DNA of 64,000 nt from a virus, in UHGV virus genome UHGV-0248979. One strand, written 5' to 3'. Shown here piece after piece: positions 3,986-43,016 of the stretch. Each line of letters begins with the position of its first letter. Within the stretch, counting starts at the first letter, position 1. A model generated the notes under the pieces. The model was not told the DNA's origin. It ran no database searches and saw only the letters and a program-made list of their open reading frames with translations. The position numbers and the translations under genes were made by a program.

Positions 3986-4477
3986 GTGAAAAGTATGATA
4001 AAACGTTTTCTTATTGTTATGGTTGGTGTTTTTTCATTGGCAGGATGTGCCTTACAACCGAATGGTGACGGCCAATTCTCGACTGTGCCGGTGGAGCCAC
4101 ATGATATGGTTATTTACACCTGTATGGGTGCAGAGCAAGATTTTGCAAATTACAAACCTGTCGTCAGCTCGACTAATATAATGTTAGGGTCAGTAACTGT
4201 ACTCGATACTGGTGCTAACTGGGTAGCCACTTGGCCAAACGGCAAGATTGAGTCGCCGCAACTTTATAAAGATTTATTAGGTAAAGTTAATGGGAATATT
4301 GATCCTATCACAGGACAACGTTACTATCGTGTAAATGGCTTACTTTCAAAAACGCCAACGTTTGCGTATTCTACTTTAGAATATAAAACGGGTGATGGTA
4401 AAGGCATTACTTTCTTCCACTGTAAAGAAGGTGTAGCGTCTGACACTGGAACAATGCTCCATCCTGCGGAACAATAA
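3986..4477 (+). CDS. putative lipoprotein (candidate superinfection-exclusion or moron gene)
   Basis: Signal peptide with lipobox (FSLAG-C); likely true start is the ATG near 3995 with an AAAGGTG RBS; isolated plus-strand gene with its own terminator. Confidence 0.6.
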   Translation: MKSMIKRFLIVMVGVFSLAGCALQPNGDGQFSTVPVEPHDMVIYTCMGAEQDFANYKPVVSSTNIMLGSVTVLDTGANWVATWPNGKIESPQLYKDLLGKVNGNIDPITGQRYYRVNGLLSKTPTFAYSTLEYKTGDGKGITFFHCKEGVASDTGTMLHPAEQ

Positions 4478-4592: not shown

Positions 4593-5108
4593 TTAAATCT
4601 CGACTAAGGCGCTCCAATCGATTGGTTTTTGCTTAACAACTTTCACAGTACCACGATTTGGTGACCAGAAAGTAATGTTAGGCTGGTTACGAACGTCAAT
4701 GTGCAACCAACTGATGTCACATTCAATAAAGTGAATGAACGGAAACTCGTCAGGGTTAGCAGCGATATAGTCGTGAACCTGTTTTACGGTGCTATCCAAC
4801 AACGTTGCATCAATGGCGTTACCGAATTTGTGTTGACTTCCTGAATCGGCGTAAAGCTGCAACGCACGTTGTTTATAACTACCACCCTTAGGCTTTTCTT
4901 GATTAATAAAGAAATCTAAGGTTCTTAGTCCGCGCTGTTGTGCGGCAGTTGAGTTAATCACCATTCTGCCGAAACGATTACGAATCTGTTGTAGGGAGAT
5001 CATTAACAACGGATTCATAAACCGAATTGCGGAATCGCCGTATTTGGCAATATAGGACTGTGGTACTAACTCTCTGAGTTTAAAGTTACTCGGATTTGGA
5101 TGAAACAT
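4593..5108 (-). CDS. peptidase M15-like cell-wall hydrolase (DUF882/Peptidase_M15_3-like)
   Basis: Motif SQHKFGNAIDA (SxHxxGxAxD) and a later His, typical of zinc D,D-carboxypeptidase-like M15 domains. Confidence 0.6.
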   Translation of the reverse strand: MFHPNPSNFKLRELVPQSYIAKYGDSAIRFMNPLLMISLQQIRNRFGRMVINSTAAQQRGLRTLDFFINQEKPKGGSYKQRALQLYADSGSQHKFGNAIDATLLDSTVKQVHDYIAANPDEFPFIHFIECDISWLHIDVRNQPNITFWSPNRGTVKVVKQKPIDWSALVEI

Positions 5109-5867: not shown

Positions 5868-6458
5868 TCATTTTACTAACCCCGCCTTCACTACATAATC
5901 CGGCATTTCCCTGTACACGCGTCCGTACCAGCCGTAAGCGAATTTTTCATTCTTCTTACGCTTTTCGGAGATTTCCGTGTAGTAGGTTACCTGATGTGAG
6001 ATTAACGCAAAGATTAAGATGCCTAATCCCTCGCCTTTACGGTAATTCAGATAAGCATTCAGAGCACCTAGTGTTTTAGGTCCCATACCACCATCGGTGT
6101 CAATATCTGCGTAAAGTTTCCCTTCGTTATTTAAAACGTTGAGAATACGTTGTAACGATTTCACACAGTTAACACGGCCAGAGTTAATACCAAAATCAAA
6201 CATCCTGTCGGCGAGTATCGGCGAGATAGCGAAAATCTCATCGAGTTTAAGTTTCTTCCACCAACCACGATCGTAAATATCAAACGCTTGCGCACGGGTC
6301 AGATCTTTCATTCTTCCTTTGTACCCGTATTCGCGTGCAGTTGTCAGTGTTACCCCGTGACAGGTTTCCCCACCTTTATCGTCAGGGTCATTGACGTACC
6401 CACCCTCTAAATCTGTTTTTGATTCAATAATACCTTCTTTAGTCCAACGTTCGGCCAT
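5868..6458 (-). CDS. endolysin, glycoside hydrolase family 108-like with peptidoglycan-binding domain
   Basis: N-terminal EGGYVNDPDDKGGETCHGVT signature typical of GH108 lysozymes; C-terminal region consistent with a PG-binding module. Confidence 0.75.
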   Translation of the reverse strand: MAERWTKEGIIESKTDLEGGYVNDPDDKGGETCHGVTLTTAREYGYKGRMKDLTRAQAFDIYDRGWWKKLKLDEIFAISPILADRMFDFGINSGRVNCVKSLQRILNVLNNEGKLYADIDTDGGMGPKTLGALNAYLNYRKGEGLGILIFALISHQVTYYTEISEKRKKNEKFAYGWYGRVYREMPDYVVKAGLVK

Positions 6459-36738: not shown

Positions 36739-37206
36739 TTAGATTTCCTTTATCATTTCCCTGCATTCGGTACGGAATCCCATCTTCTCATACAAGGAGA
36801 TAGCTTTAACGTTGTTGTCTAACACATCCAGACTCATCCAACCACAGCCTTTGGACTTTCCGTATTCACGGACTTTGTCCATAAGCGCACGGCCTACCCC
36901 TTGAGAGCGTGCTTCAGGAACCACATAGTAATTCCCGATGTAAACAAACGTGTCCTTTGAGCAAGAACCCATTGAGAACGTCATAAATCCCAGAAGCTGT
37001 TCGTTGTCGTCCACCGCACACGCACAGAGATAATCTTGAGGCCAAATCTCTTCTAAACGTTCGATGGGGTTGAACGTGTCACGTCCGGTTAACTGACTAA
37101 TACGCACTTTCTCTTCTGCGAACAGCATGTTGTGCAGTTTGAGTACCTGGTCGCCGTATAACTTTCCGTATTTACTGTCGGGTTTGAGAATAATAGTAAT
37201 ACGCAT
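36739..37206 (-). CDS. GNAT family N-acetyltransferase
   Basis: 155 aa; motif VVPEARSQGVGRALM. Confidence 0.75.
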   Translation of the reverse strand: MRITIILKPDSKYGKLYGDQVLKLHNMLFAEEKVRISQLTGRDTFNPIERLEEIWPQDYLCACAVDDNEQLLGFMTFSMGSCSKDTFVYIGNYYVVPEARSQGVGRALMDKVREYGKSKGCGWMSLDVLDNNVKAISLYEKMGFRTECREMIKEI

Positions 37207-38967: not shown

Positions 38968-39003
38968 GAAAAAAAGAAAGCAGGAGAGAACCCCGAAAAG
39001 GTT
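38968..39003 (-). terminator. rho-independent terminator
   Basis: Hairpin ggagagaacc-ccgaaaa-ggttctctcc with an adjacent T-run. Confidence 0.65.
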
Positions 39004-39023
39004 CTCTCCTATCGTTGACGATA

Positions 39024-39686
39024 TCACTCTTCTAAACTACTTAAAACGGCAGTTTCGAGTAACGCTTTACCCATCCAGACATCCAACTCACCATCTAAGT
39101 CAGCTAAAGGGCGCTTATCCAGTTCGTTGTTGTAGTTAAGTCCGTCAAGGGTTTTATTCGTAATAATTTGCCCAATATGAAGCGGTAGAATAAAACGATT
39201 TCGTGCGCTATAAATAAACGAATCACATTCGTAAACTACCGCATAGCGCTCAAGATCGTCATCATACTCAACATGGCACTGCGAGCCAGTGTCCCATGCA
39301 CGTGACAAAACCATACCACGATCTTGACACATCTTCTCTACTGACGCTTTCGCGGACTTTGCCCATTTATCGTAATTTTTCGGTTGGCCGTTTTCGAAAT
39401 CGAACCAATCCAGATACTTACCGGGAATCTCAAGAAAGTCGTTTAGTTGAAGTTTTGTGTAAGATACCATCACCGCGTCATTAATATCGTTGCGGTTAGT
39501 TAACTTTACCCGATACCGACCTTCCGGTGTGGGTGCACCCATTAAAGAAACATCCACTTTCTCAGCCGAAAGCTTTTTACGTACACTGCCGTTATTACAG
39601 TAGCTGACGAGGTTGAGTAAGTTCTGTCTATGACCAACTTCAAAATCAATTACAAAAGACATACAAACTCCGCGGGGGTTAATCAC
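39024..39686 (-). CDS. hypothetical protein
   Basis: 220-aa ORF. Confidence 0.55.
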   Translation of the reverse strand: MINPRGVCMSFVIDFEVGHRQNLLNLVSYCNNGSVRKKLSAEKVDVSLMGAPTPEGRYRVKLTNRNDINDAVMVSYTKLQLNDFLEIPGKYLDWFDFENGQPKNYDKWAKSAKASVEKMCQDRGMVLSRAWDTGSQCHVEYDDDLERYAVVYECDSFIYSARNRFILPLHIGQIITNKTLDGLNYNNELDKRPLADLDGELDVWMGKALLETAVLSSLEE

Positions 39687-40078
39687 TAATACCCGTATAA
39701 CGGGTAGCGTGCGGTGATCTCATCACCGACATAAAAAGTTAAACGTTGGATTTTAATACTTTTATTTACATAGGGTACAGTTTCTAACGTTACCTTTACA
39801 CCGGCAGAACAGCTTCCAGGATCAACAAACTGATATGTACGTCGTTTGATATTTACCAAATAGTAGCCACCCGCTGGGCACAGTTCGGTTTTGCCATAAT
39901 TTACCGTGGCAAACTCATCGTTTTGAACCGCAACGACTGGTTGGTCGGTAGATTTAAATACGACAGGTTTATCCCCTGGCACCGTAGGTTCAAAACGACT
40001 AATATCGTGCGGTTTAAATTCCGCTATCGCGGAAAATGAAAGTAACGTTAGAAAAAGGGTAATAACAGATCTTTTCAT
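39686..40078 (-). CDS. secreted (periplasmic) protein with signal peptide
   Basis: 130 aa; N-terminal signal sequence MKRSVITLFLTLLSFSAIA; four Cys in the mature part. Confidence 0.6.
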   Translation of the reverse strand: MKRSVITLFLTLLSFSAIAEFKPHDISRFEPTVPGDKPVVFKSTDQPVVAVQNDEFATVNYGKTELCPAGGYYLVNIKRRTYQFVDPGSCSAGVKVTLETVPYVNKSIKIQRLTFYVGDEITARYPLYGY

Positions 40079-40554
40079 CAGTATACCTCATCAAGATGTT
40101 CGCGTAGCCATGGTTTCGACTCTAAGCGCGGAATCATGTTCCGCGTGTTCGGCGAAAACCATAACGCTTCGCGATATTTCTTTTTGAAACGTTCCCAGTG
40201 ATACGAGAATGGCTTGGGTGTAAAACCGCGCTCTTTTAGCACCTCCTCCCAAACCAAGTCTTTAATAAAATCATCCACTAAAATTAATACCAGCGCTTTC
40301 CATTTACTACGTCGGTAGTGCCGTGTAAAAGATTTGCGGAGATCAGAAAAGTCCTCTCGTCGCCGAGAACGTACTACTGGAGTTGCCTTCTCTTTAAATT
40401 GCGAACAAGGATTATGTTCTATTATCGTTACAGGAACACCCCGAACACGACCTGTACGCAAGTCAATCTCGTGAGCGGGGATAACTTCAACGCAACGTAA
40501 CACTTTTGCTTTATTGCCTTCCAAGCACCGCGTCTCATATTCGACACGAATCAT
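40078..40554 (-). CDS. hypothetical basic protein
   Basis: 158 aa, Arg/Lys-rich. Confidence 0.55.
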   Translation of the reverse strand: MIRVEYETRCLEGNKAKVLRCVEVIPAHEIDLRTGRVRGVPVTIIEHNPCSQFKEKATPVVRSRRREDFSDLRKSFTRHYRRSKWKALVLILVDDFIKDLVWEEVLKERGFTPKPFSYHWERFKKKYREALWFSPNTRNMIPRLESKPWLREHLDEVY

Positions 40555-40573: not shown

Positions 40574-41050
40574 CTAATAAATCTTATCCGCAACAGAGAG
40601 AAAGATGGGGGTGTTTTCAATAAAATCCACCAAATATCCTTCTTCTGGCGGGGTGTATGACGAATCAATGTTACTGTTCGTCATACGAAAATACCGACGG
40701 GAGTCACTGGCAATAAACCATCGGTCTATTTGGAAGCCTTTTTTGGAAAAGAAACACAGCCCGTCGATGTTTGAGGGATGAACACGACACATCACCATTT
40801 GACGATCTGAATTGAGTTGAACGTATTTCAGTAAAAAGGAACCTACACCACTGCGACGAGAACCCTCGGCCACCACCAGATAAATAAGATTCCCCGGTTC
40901 CCAGATTGCAACCCCATGTGTAATATCGTCTTCAACGGCCAAAGTGATTCTAACCGGCGTTTCACGAATCGAATTTAAGTCTTTCACATATTCGCACAAT
41001 TCAGGAAATTTAGCAGAGATTTTGTCTTCGGTAATATTTAACGGTTGCAT
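40574..41050 (-). CDS. GNAT family N-acetyltransferase
   Basis: 158 aa; motif VVAEGSRRSGVGSFLL. Confidence 0.7.
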   Translation of the reverse strand: MQPLNITEDKISAKFPELCEYVKDLNSIRETPVRITLAVEDDITHGVAIWEPGNLIYLVVAEGSRRSGVGSFLLKYVQLNSDRQMVMCRVHPSNIDGLCFFSKKGFQIDRWFIASDSRRYFRMTNSNIDSSYTPPEEGYLVDFIENTPIFLSVADKIY

Positions 41051-41754: not shown

Positions 41755-41792
41755 TAAAAAGAAGTAACCTCTACCCGAAGGTAGAGGTTAAT
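41755..41792 (-). terminator. rho-independent terminator
   Basis: Hairpin aacctctacc-cgaa-ggtagaggtt with a T-run on the minus strand. Confidence 0.65.
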
Positions 41793-41793
41793 A

Positions 41794-42372
41794 TTATTTC
41801 GTTGTTGGGCTTTCTGTCTTCGACTTAAGCTGGCCTGATTTCTCAAGCTTCTTCTCAACAACTTTTGTGGCTATCTCAAGAGACTTATAAGCCAACGTTT
41901 TAATCGGCCAAGTCGCAAAAACAACCAATGCAAAGAACGGTACCAACGTCACAATCAGAACATCTAGACTGTCTTCTGGAAAATGTTGATGTGTGTCGTA
42001 ACCCAGGAACCCCGTTACAATAACCGTCGCCAACGTCAGAATGGCAATAATGAACTTCTGGGAAGCGGCTAATTTCGGCCATAAGGTTAGCATGGTTTCT
42101 TTACTAACCTCATCCCCGAGAGATTCCACAGCATCAGTTGCCTGCTGATGGAATTGTTCTGATAGTTTGCCTAAATTATCAATTAACGTCGGTCGTAAGT
42201 CGGAAAGAATCTTTGTTCCCGAACGGGTAACGTCAACATCGACTTCATCCCCATACGCCGCTTTCAAGAGTTTCGTTAACTGTTCAGATTGTTCTTTACT
42301 TAACTTTTTGTTTCCAGCTTGAATCAGCAAGTCAAGTATTTCAGTGGGTAGTGCTTGTGTGCTTGGTTCCAT
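41794..42372 (-). CDS. membrane protein (two predicted transmembrane helices)
   Basis: 192 aa; hydrophobic segments FIIAILTLATVIVTGFLGY and LIVTLVPFFALVVFATWPI. Confidence 0.6.
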   Translation of the reverse strand: MEPSTQALPTEILDLLIQAGNKKLSKEQSEQLTKLLKAAYGDEVDVDVTRSGTKILSDLRPTLIDNLGKLSEQFHQQATDAVESLGDEVSKETMLTLWPKLAASQKFIIAILTLATVIVTGFLGYDTHQHFPEDSLDVLIVTLVPFFALVVFATWPIKTLAYKSLEIATKVVEKKLEKSGQLKSKTESPTTK

Positions 42373-43016
42373 TAACGTTTTCTCCGACGCCTTCTCCGCC
42401 TGGAGGTCTTAGTCGACTTTTGTTTAGGCGGTAGCAAGCTATTTAAGTTTAACAGATTTACCCTGACGAAAATATTTCCCACCGCCACAGCATCAATGCT
42501 GTGCTCATCTAACGTTGTAATATCAAACAAAGCATGTTCACGGTAGAGCTTGGTCACGGCCCGAAACATATCGGTTTTATCCGTCCCCTTCGCTTCCACC
42601 CCAACGAATGATTTTACAATGATAGGATTGAAGCCGTGTAAAATTTTCTCCGGGTAAATATCCCACAAAGTACGTCGCAACATTAATTGTAGTTCGACGC
42701 CAGATTCATAAGCGGAGAGTTTTGCTCTCCGCATGAACGGTGTCTCAGTTGCAACGAAAGTTGGGCAGGCAATCCGAAGAAATTCACGGTAACAAGCTTC
42801 GAGCTTAACTAAACGATCGTCACGTTTACCGACACACTCTGCGAACGCATTTGGATGCGTTGGGTCTAATACATGCATGGTATCAGCCCAAACCACTTCG
42901 GCTTGATCGCTGCCGTATTCCCAATCCAATACTGCCATACCAAGATGGCTCGTACCGGGGTCTATTGCCGCGATTCTTACCATCTTATCTGGAAGTCTCG
43001 GCTCGGGTATCAACAT
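42372..43016 (-). CDS. RuvC-like Holliday junction resolvase with poly-Arg C-terminal tail
   Basis: N-terminal RIAAIDPGTSHLGMAVL resembling the RuvC/YqgF catalytic motif; C-terminal SRRRRRRRKR. Confidence 0.6.
   Translation of the reverse strand: MLIPEPRLPDKMVRIAAIDPGTSHLGMAVLDWEYGSDQAEVVWADTMHVLDPTHPNAFAECVGKRDDRLVKLEACYREFLRIACPTFVATETPFMRRAKLSAYESGVELQLMLRRTLWDIYPEKILHGFNPIIVKSFVGVEAKGTDKTDMFRAVTKLYREHALFDITTLDEHSIDAVAVGNIFVRVNLLNLNSLLPPKQKSTKTSRRRRRRRKR

What the first reader, a model, noticed from the sequence alone, without database searches (positions are those of the whole stretch)
39686..40078. Phage-encoded secreted periplasmic protein
A 130-aa protein carries a classical cleavable signal peptide and four Cys in the mature part. 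It is not in a structural gene block, so it is probably exported into the periplasm, where it could act in exclusion or envelope remodelling.
Basis: inference. Interest (0 to 1): 0.35.

Follow-up and report, generated by a model that had tools for sequence, protein, structure and literature searches.

The report
Exported small protein of a jumbo phage
A giant phage related to Salmonella phage SPN3US encodes a small protein with an export signal that very probably ends up in the host periplasm; it is a real and conserved gene of unknown function, distantly related to the E. coli cryptic-prophage lipoproteins YfjS/YafY, and is otherwise fairly ordinary.

Summary
The ORF is real: 39686..40078 on the minus strand, 130 aa, with a GAGG ribosome-binding site and dN/dS of 0.05-0.19. 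It has a canonical Sec/signal-peptidase-I leader (MKRSVITLFLTLLSFSAIA|EF). The mature part has two cysteines (C67, C90), not four.

The window is a jumbo phage of the SPN3US/phiEaH2 group, and the gene is the orthologue of SPN3US gp90 (48% identity; PHROG 5248, function unknown).

All 25 relatives examined keep a leader and a Cys pair spaced exactly 23 residues apart. This points to a periplasmic, disulfide-bonded domain. AlphaFold gives a confident helix plus seven-strand beta fold (pLDDT 90.5) that has no neighbour in the PDB.

Profile-profile comparison links the family to the YfjS/YafY lipoprotein domain (92.7% probability, both Cys aligned). Serratia relatives sit in the yfjS slot of CP4-57-like islands. 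Pfam thresholds are not met, and there is no lipobox.

gp90 is absent from the 83-protein SPN3US virion proteome. However, the gene lies in a terminator-bracketed five-gene unit that ends with a gp91-like gene; gp91 is a virion protein in SPN3US, so "not in a structural block" is doubtful.

Export is well supported. A role in exclusion or envelope modification remains inference.

The parts
39686..40078 (-). Complete CDS (130 codons plus stop), orthologue of SPN3US gp90 and member of PHROG 5248
   Evidence: (phrog_5248, E 4.6e-37, full length)
40022..40078 (-). Predicted Sec/SPase I signal peptide, residues 1-19 (MKRSVITLFLTLLSFSAIA). Predicted cleavage is after A-I-A.
   Evidence: heuristic; SignalP was not available. 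pLDDT is low for residues 1-20 in the full-length model.
39689..40021 (-). Mature domain, residues 20-130 (111 aa, 12.5 kDa, pI 8.0): one short helix plus seven beta strands
   Evidence: (pLDDT 90.5, pTM 0.82)
39878..39880 (-). Codon of Cys67, invariant and within the C-P-x-G motif
39809..39811 (-). Codon of Cys90, invariant. The spacing from Cys67 is 23 residues in every relative; presumed disulfide partner.
40086..40089 (-). GAGG Shine-Dalgarno sequence, 7 nt upstream of the ATG. The start overlaps the upstream gene's stop codon (TGATG), which suggests translational coupling.
40078..40554 (-). Upstream gene (gp89-like, phrog_9187, function unknown). Its stop overlaps the start of the finding's ORF.
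39024..39662 (-). Downstream gene, gp91-like. SPN3US gp91 is a virion protein that is absent from tailless particles. The likely true start is the ATG at 39662, not the GTG at 39686.
41765..41790 (-). Terminator-like hairpin (11-bp stem) upstream of the five-gene unit gp87-like to gp91-like
38981..39011 (-). Terminator-like hairpin (14-bp stem plus T-run) just after the gp91-like gene; likely end of the unit that contains the finding

Best explanation
The gene encodes a small accessory protein of an SPN3US/phiEaH2-type jumbo phage.

Proposed pathway:
- It is made in the infected cell's cytoplasm.
- It is exported through Sec.
- Signal peptidase I cleaves it after Ala19.
- DsbA oxidises it to a Cys67-Cys90 disulfide.
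- The result is a soluble, 12.5-kDa, all-beta periplasmic domain.

It is not a virion component. It is a non-lipidated, divergent relative of the YfjS/YafY domain carried by CP4-type integrative islands. The same family also occurs as a moron in a temperate prophage.

No plausible catalytic residues are conserved; only Cys, Gly, Leu, Tyr, Asp, Phe and Pro are. The protein therefore most likely works by binding an envelope component. My preferred reading is that it conditions or protects the envelope of the infected cell, for example by excluding superinfecting phage or blocking an envelope-level attack.

Shown or strongly indicated by computation: the gene is real, the leader and Cys pair are conserved, the fold is predicted with confidence, the orthologue is absent from virions, and the family is spread across mobile elements.

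Inferred: actual export and cleavage, the disulfide, the binding mode, and the exclusion or protection role.
For: Gene and leader:
- ORF, ribosome-binding site and coupling to the upstream gene.
- Purifying selection, dN/dS 0.05-0.19.
- Leader features in all 25 family members, with no lipobox at the aligned site.
- C67 and C90 invariant, always 23 residues apart.
- The 11-residue h-region is too short for a membrane anchor.

Fold:
- Confident beta fold for the mature part, pLDDT 90.5.
- The leader is disordered in the full-length model.

Link to YfjS/YafY:
- hhalign of the family profile against E. coli YfjS gives 86% probability, and 92.7% (E 4e-7) against a YfjS alignment, with both Cys aligned.
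- The negative control YfjT gives 0.6%.
- The Serratia oryzae relative sits after a YfjR homologue (39% identity) and before Antirestrict-RadC-CbtA/CbeA, which is the yfjS slot of CP4-57.

Distribution:
- Another relative is an opposite-strand gene next to the terminase in a prophage.
- The gene's position varies among jumbo phages: the gp89/gp91 slot in most, but about 185 kb along the genome near tail-fibre genes in CR5 and the Derbicusvirus phages.

Virion status:
- SPN3US gp90 is absent from the 83 proteins detected in virions, while gp91, gp94, gp95 and gp97 are present (PMC5105663 Table S4).
Against: - No signal-peptide predictor could be run, and there is no experimental localisation.
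- No functional homologue was found. Pfam, NCBIfam and PADLOC gave nothing for the window protein. PDB sequence and fold searches gave nothing.
- The YfjS/YafY link is below Pfam thresholds. YfjS/YafY themselves have no known function beyond Cpx activation on overproduction.
- A small, low-copy protein could be missed by gel-based virion mass spectrometry.
- Probable co-transcription with the gp91-like gene, whose SPN3US orthologue is a virion (tail-dependent) protein, could instead point to a role connected with virion or tail biology.
Confidence: 0.55

Rival explanations
1. Envelope-stress modulator. Like its distant relative YafY, whose overproduction switches on the Cpx response, the protein alters envelope stress signalling or periplasmic quality control during infection, rather than blocking other phages.
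For: Remote homology to the YfjS/YafY domain. YafY is one of only two E. coli lipoproteins whose overproduction activates Cpx (PMC6538781).
Against: The YafY effect is an overproduction phenotype of an inner-membrane-anchored lipoprotein, and the phage protein has no lipid anchor. Homology is weak and covers only part of the domain. Deleting yafY gave no phenotype in the assays of that paper.
Confidence: 0.12
2. Lysis accessory factor. The protein is a periplasmic component or regulator of host lysis, such as a spanin-like or antiholin-like factor or a modulator of the endolysin.
For: It is exported, and lysis proteins of Gram-negative phages often act in the periplasm. The window does encode endolysin-like proteins and a lipoprotein.
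Against: Those lysis-type genes lie about 35 kb away, at 4.0-6.5 kb. The protein has no lipobox, no membrane anchor and no coiled coil; it is a compact beta domain. Relatives occur in non-phage islands of Serratia that have no lysis genes.
Confidence: 0.08
3. Virion-associated or tail-assembly protein. The gene belongs functionally with its virion-gene neighbours, and the hydrophobic N-terminus is not an export signal.
For: The gene lies in a terminator-bracketed unit ending with the gp91-like gene; gp91 is a virion (tail-dependent) protein in SPN3US. It is close to genes for an internal head protein and a virion-associated acetyltransferase. In the Derbicusvirus phages the homologue lies next to tail-fibre genes.
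Against: SPN3US gp90 was not among the 83 virion proteins detected in four preparations. The leader and Cys pair are conserved in bacterial relatives that have no virion context. A cytoplasmic virion protein would not be expected to keep a canonical cleavable leader.
Confidence: 0.06
4. Membrane-tethered protein. The N-terminal segment is an uncleaved signal anchor that holds the beta domain at the inner membrane, or at the membrane vesicle that surrounds the incoming genome of nucleus-forming jumbo phages.
For: Its distant relatives YfjS/YafY are tethered to the inner membrane. Cleavage was only predicted by rule of thumb.
Against: The hydrophobic stretch is only about 11-15 residues and is followed by a textbook A-x-A site and an acidic +1 residue. 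Small residues at -1 and -3 recur throughout the family.
Confidence: 0.08

Closest known systems
SPN3US gp90 (SPN3US_0090, AEP83923) and PHROG 5248, hypothetical proteins of the Seoulvirus, Erskinevirus, Machinavirus, Derbicusvirus and Wellington/Kwan-type jumbo phages
   Same: Orthologue: 48% identity over the full length. It sits in the same gene order, acetyltransferase, gp89, gp90, gp91, DprA-like, internal head protein. It has the same leader and the same Cys pair.
   Different: There is no close DNA match to any deposited phage. The best protein identity to a named phage is 57-60%. None of these proteins has an assigned function.
YfjS/YafY lipoprotein domain (Pfam PF20494) of the E. coli cryptic prophages CP4-57 and CP4-6
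   Same: Profile-profile match at 92.7% probability, covering the N-terminal helix region through both cysteines, which align. Both are envelope-targeted and carried on mobile elements. Serratia members of the phage protein's family occupy the yfjS position after a yfjR homologue.
   Different: The window protein gets no Pfam hit, and relatives only reach sub-threshold scores. It has a signal-peptidase-I leader instead of a lipobox, so it would be soluble rather than anchored to the inner membrane. The C-terminal halves do not align. It is in a lytic jumbo phage, not an integrative island.
T4 Spackle (Sp) and other phage-encoded envelope-level superinfection-exclusion proteins (T4 Imm, T5 Llp, Cor); comparison from general knowledge
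   Same: A small protein of a lytic phage with an export signal that is not part of the virion and could act in the periplasm of the infected cell.
   Different: No sequence or fold similarity to anything in the PDB, best Foldseek E 0.2. No exclusion phenotype has been tested. This is an analogy only.

Membership tests
PHROG 5248 (jumbo-phage hypothetical protein family) | Full-length match to the family profile | tested here: met
   E 4.6e-37, residues 1-128 against profile positions 1-128 of 129. There are 59 phage records with tblastn matches.
Sec/SPase I secretory proteins | Positively charged n-region, hydrophobic h-region of 7-15 residues, small residues at -3 and -1, no lipobox, no twin-arginine motif | tested here: met
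   K2 and R3; V5-F15; A17-I-A19 followed by E20; no Cys before residue 67. The same pattern holds in 25 of 25 relatives.
Sec/SPase I secretory proteins | Positive call and cleavage site from a trained predictor (SignalP/DeepSig), or experimental cleavage | not testable with these tools
   No such predictor is available here. Only rule-based features were computed.
YfjS/YafY lipoprotein domain (PF20494) | Pfam HMM score above the gathering threshold (27 bits) | tested here: not met
   The window protein has no hit at E <= 10. Four of 25 relatives have sub-threshold hits, best E 0.023.
YfjS/YafY lipoprotein domain (PF20494) | Lipoprotein signal peptide with a lipobox Cys | tested here: not met
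   YfjS has LSAC. The window protein has SAIA followed by E and no Cys in the leader.
YfjS/YafY lipoprotein domain (PF20494) | Shared core: C-x-G-G-x-Y-Y-L-V...K-T-x-Q...C with both Cys conserved, detectable by profile-profile comparison | tested here: met
   hhalign gives 85.9% (family against YfjS) and 92.7%, E 4.3e-7 (family against a YfjS alignment). The phage-only profile gives 58%. The control YfjT gives 0.6%.
YfjS/YafY lipoprotein domain (PF20494) | Position in CP4-type islands downstream of the yfjR regulator and upstream of the antirestriction/RadC/CbtA module | tested here: inconclusive
   This holds for the Serratia relatives compared with CP4-57. It does not apply to the phage gene itself.
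Virion structural proteins of SPN3US-like phages | Detection in purified virions by mass spectrometry | tested here: not met
   gp90 is absent from Table S4 of PMC5105663 (83 proteins, four preparations), while gp91, gp94, gp95 and gp97 are present. This is published data for the orthologue, not for this phage.
Spanins (o-, i- or u-spanin) | Lipobox or N-terminal membrane anchor, a coiled-coil periplasmic domain, and adjacency to holin/endolysin genes | tested here: not met
   No lipobox or anchor. The domain is all-beta. The endolysin-like genes are about 35 kb away.
Periplasmic lysozyme inhibitors (MliC/PliC, Ivy, PliG) and known anti-phage defence proteins | Match to the family profile or fold | tested here: not met
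   No Pfam, NCBIfam or PADLOC hit. No PDB fold neighbour, best E 0.2 and TM <= 0.41.

The most novel reading that the evidence does not exclude
The protein represents a soluble, phage-borne branch of the YfjS/YafY envelope-protein superfamily. The branch is shared by lytic nucleus-forming jumbo phages, temperate prophages and CP4-type islands. It has a beta fold with no solved representative. It acts in the periplasm as a superinfection-exclusion or envelope-protection factor. If so, this would give the first function to the YfjS/YafY family and the first periplasmic effector described for SPN3US-like phages.
Probability: 0.2. Interest if true: 0.55.

Novelty: new variant of a known kind. Interest (0 to 1): 0.3.

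Why it matters
SPN3US-like jumbo phages are candidates for phage therapy and biocontrol, and they replicate inside a protein nucleus. Almost nothing is known about what they do to the host envelope.

A conserved exported protein that is not packaged is a simple handle on that question. It could affect superinfection, the compatibility of phages in cocktails, or envelope stress.

The remote link to YfjS/YafY also offers a route to a function for a widespread family of uncharacterised E. coli cryptic-prophage lipoproteins.

As it stands, though, this is one more hypothetical exported phage protein, and the finding is modest.

Tried and rejected
- Pfam, NCBIfam and PADLOC scans of the protein and its relatives gave nothing significant.
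- PDB sequence searches with two profiles gave only chance hits: a chitin deacetylase at E 1.4 and LidA at E 0.5.
- Foldseek against the PDB was run with a medium-confidence full-length model and a high-confidence mature-domain model. The best E was 0.2, and the hits were only beta-propeller blades.
- Foldseek against BFVD returned only uncharacterised proteins of about 130 aa from Erwinia jumbo phages, at 13-20% identity. It is unresolved whether these are orthologues with shifted alignments or paralogues.
- An HMM search of all window ORFs found no paralogue.
- Megablast of 4 kb around the gene against phage genomes found no match.
- The infected-cell proteome paper for SPN3US (Weintraub 2019, PMC6384053) is not held, so expression timing could not be checked.
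- Supplements of two other SPN3US proteomics papers do not mention gp90.
- The small membrane protein upstream of the Serratia oryzae relative is not detectably similar to YpjK.
- Weak Lipocalin_4 hits (4 of 25 members, best E 0.005) were not pursued.
- The sigma-70 promoter scan found no more sites than expected by chance, and these phages use their own RNA polymerases, so it says nothing about timing.

Full report
**The observation**

A GAGG sits 7 nt upstream of the ATG. The ATG overlaps the stop codon of the upstream gene (TGATG), so the two genes are probably translationally coupled.

The N-terminus, MKRSVITLFLTLLSFSAIA followed by EF, has the three classical parts of a Sec/signal-peptidase-I leader:
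- two basic residues;
- an 11-residue hydrophobic core;
- A-x-A before an acidic residue.

There is no lipobox and no twin-arginine motif. A crude scan of about 75 ORFs of 80 aa or more in the window flags only this protein and one lipoprotein.

The statement about four cysteines is wrong. There are two, C67 and C90.

The gene is under purifying selection. dN/dS is 0.05 and 0.19 against metagenomic relatives with 96% and 94% protein identity.

**What genome this is**

The neighbours include a phiKZ-type internal head protein, two GNAT acetyltransferases, a DprA-like protein and a RuvC-like resolvase. tblastn finds the protein in 59 phage records, all of them jumbo phages of Salmonella, Erwinia, Escherichia and Proteus from the SPN3US/phiEaH2 group. 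Identities to named phages are 33-60%. No phage record matches the DNA by megablast.

The SPN3US orthologue is gp90 (SPN3US_0090), with 48% identity over the full length. The gene order is conserved: acetyltransferase, gp89, gp90, gp91, DprA-like, internal head protein. The family is PHROG 5248, function unknown.

**Is it structural?**

The published SPN3US virion proteome lists 83 proteins (Table S4 of PMC5105663; four preparations). gp90 is not among them. The same table lists neighbours:
- gp91, which is lost from tailless particles;
- gp94;
- gp95;
- gp97;
- gp82-84.

The window's downstream gene is 44% identical to gp91. Two strong terminator-like hairpins on the coding strand, at 41790-41765 and 39011-38981, bracket a five-gene unit running from the gp87-like to the gp91-like gene, and this unit contains the finding.

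So the gene sits among virion-gene homologues and is probably co-transcribed with one. The protein itself, judged by its orthologue, is not packaged.

**Family-wide evidence for export**

An HMM search of 1.84 billion representative proteins found only 14 hits. A follow-up search found about 17 more distant members. These include chromosomal proteins of Serratia proteamaculans, S. oryzae and Serratia sp. DD3.

In an alignment of 25 members, down to 23% identity:
- every protein has a charged and hydrophobic N-terminal leader followed by small residues;
- the two cysteines are invariant;
- the two cysteines are always exactly 23 residues apart.

An invariant Cys pair behind a leader is what one expects of a DsbA-oxidised periplasmic domain (established knowledge; the disulfide itself is inferred).

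The other conserved positions are G70, L74, Y82, D86, F115, A123, Y125 and P126. They do not look catalytic, which suggests a binding module (inference).

**Structure**

With 22 sequences, the mature domain (residues 20-130) is predicted with pLDDT 90.5 and pTM 0.82. It has a short helix followed by seven beta strands. In the earlier full-length model the leader had low confidence.

Foldseek against the PDB gave no meaningful neighbour for either model: best E 0.2, TM no higher than 0.41, and the hits were mostly propeller blades. PDB sequence searches were also empty. The fold therefore gives no functional lead.

**A remote relative with a name**

Four of the 25 members give sub-threshold Pfam hits to PF20494, the YfjS/YafY lipoprotein domain. 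I then ran profile-profile comparisons:

| Query | Target | Probability |
|---|---|---|
| Family profile | E. coli K-12 YfjS | 85.9% |
| Family profile | Alignment of YfjS homologues | 92.7% (E 4.3e-7) |
| Phage-only profile | Alignment of YfjS homologues | 58% |
| Family profile | Neighbouring exported protein YfjT (control) | 0.6% |

The match runs from the N-terminal 'F-K-P/D-L' segment through C-x-G-G-x-Y-Y-L-V to the second cysteine, and both cysteines align.

Gene context agrees. In Serratia oryzae the family member follows a YfjR homologue (39% identity, E 4e-49) and a small membrane protein. It precedes Antirestrict, RadC and CbtA/CbeA, which is the layout of yfjR-ypjK-yfjS...yfjX-yfjY-yfjZ-ypjF in CP4-57. 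S. proteamaculans has a similar arrangement.

I therefore regard the family as a divergent, non-lipidated branch related to YfjS/YafY. Formal Pfam membership is not met, and the defining lipobox is absent.

YafY is an inner-membrane lipoprotein of unknown function. Its overproduction activates the Cpx response (PMC6538781).

**Distribution**

- One bacterial member is an opposite-strand gene wedged next to the small terminase of a prophage, the classic position of a moron.
- Another lies in ordinary chromosomal context.
- Among jumbo phages the gene's position is not fixed. In CR5, Derbicus, EarlPhillipIV and Phobos the gp89/gp91 slot lacks it, and the family member lies about 100 kb away next to tail-fibre genes.

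This is the behaviour of an accessory, exchangeable gene.

**Mechanism**

The best-supported chain is: cytoplasmic translation, Sec export, cleavage after A19, disulfide formation, and a soluble periplasmic beta domain that binds some envelope component.

What it binds is unknown. By analogy with exported non-virion proteins of other lytic phages (T4 Spackle and Imm, T5 Llp; general knowledge), and with the moron-like distribution, protecting or conditioning the infected cell's envelope is the most likely role. That includes superinfection exclusion.

Rival explanations are:
- modulation of envelope stress signalling, by analogy with YafY;
- a lysis accessory role, which is disfavoured because the endolysin-like genes are about 35 kb away and there is no anchor or coiled coil;
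- a low-copy virion or assembly role, which is disfavoured by the proteome;
- a membrane-tethered form with an uncleaved leader.

No defence-system model matches.

**Verdict**

- Export is well supported by comparative evidence.
- The function remains open.
- The protein is a known hypothetical family in a known phage group.
- The modestly new elements are the remote YfjS/YafY connection, the fold with no match in the PDB, and the spread across jumbo phages, prophages and islands.
- Interest is low to moderate.

Noticed in passing
window 3995..4477 (+): A 160-aa ORF with a lipoprotein signal (MIKRFLIVMVGVFSLAGC, lipobox LAGC), phrog_9559, function unknown. It is on the opposite strand to its neighbours and lies next to two endolysin-like genes: 4593..5108 (phrog_894) and 5868..6458 (phrog_315, with a GGYVNDPDDKGG motif). 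This may be the lysis region of the phage, and the lipoprotein could be an o-spanin or another envelope factor.
   Followed up: partly
window 39024..39686 (-): The mechanical ORF for the gp91-like gene starts at a GTG at 39686. The PHROG match begins at residue 9, and SPN3US gp91 begins MSFVIDF. The real start is therefore probably the ATG at 39662, which leaves a 23-nt gap after the finding's stop codon.
   Followed up: yes
window 41765..41790 and 38981..39011: Two strong hairpins with T-runs. The first is a perfect palindrome scored on both strands. Together they bracket a five-gene unit (gp87-like to gp91-like) that mixes an acetyltransferase, two genes of unknown function, the exported protein and a homologue of a virion protein.
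   Followed up: partly
window 36739..37206 (-) and 40574..41050 (-): Two GNAT acetyltransferase genes lie within 4 kb. The SPN3US orthologue of the first (gp95) is itself found in virion heads by mass spectrometry, which is unusual for an acetyltransferase.
   Followed up: no
P0028-P0031 (metagenomic relatives, 195-224 aa): These are two-domain versions of the family. The extra N-terminal domain of the 195-aa forms has its own Cys pair with the same 23-residue spacing (C71/C94 and C143/C166), which hints at an internal duplication of the fold.
   Followed up: no
P0003 (Enterobacter quasiroggenkampii, 643-bp contig) and P0005 (91 aa): The closest named relative (85% identity, partial) is annotated in an Enterobacter assembly on a tiny contig. 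This is probably phage DNA and a hint to the host genus of the window's phage. P0005 is a metagenomic variant with a 39-residue internal deletion that removes both cysteines.
   Followed up: no
BFVD hits A0A1B2IE80 and A0A1B2IEB7 (Erwinia phage Kwan), A0A345BLK7 (Wellington), A0A1B2IDC2 (Huxley): Foldseek matches these uncharacterised proteins of about 130 aa at only 13-20% identity (E 2e-5 to 4e-4). Kwan has two different hits, so these phages may carry additional distant paralogues of the fold. No paralogue was found in this window.
   Followed up: partly
window 41794..42372 (-): A gp86-like protein (phrog_8722, function unknown) with a strongly hydrophobic segment near residues 136-155. It is a likely membrane protein encoded just upstream of the unit that contains the finding, next to a RuvC-like resolvase gene (42372..43016).
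   Followed up: no
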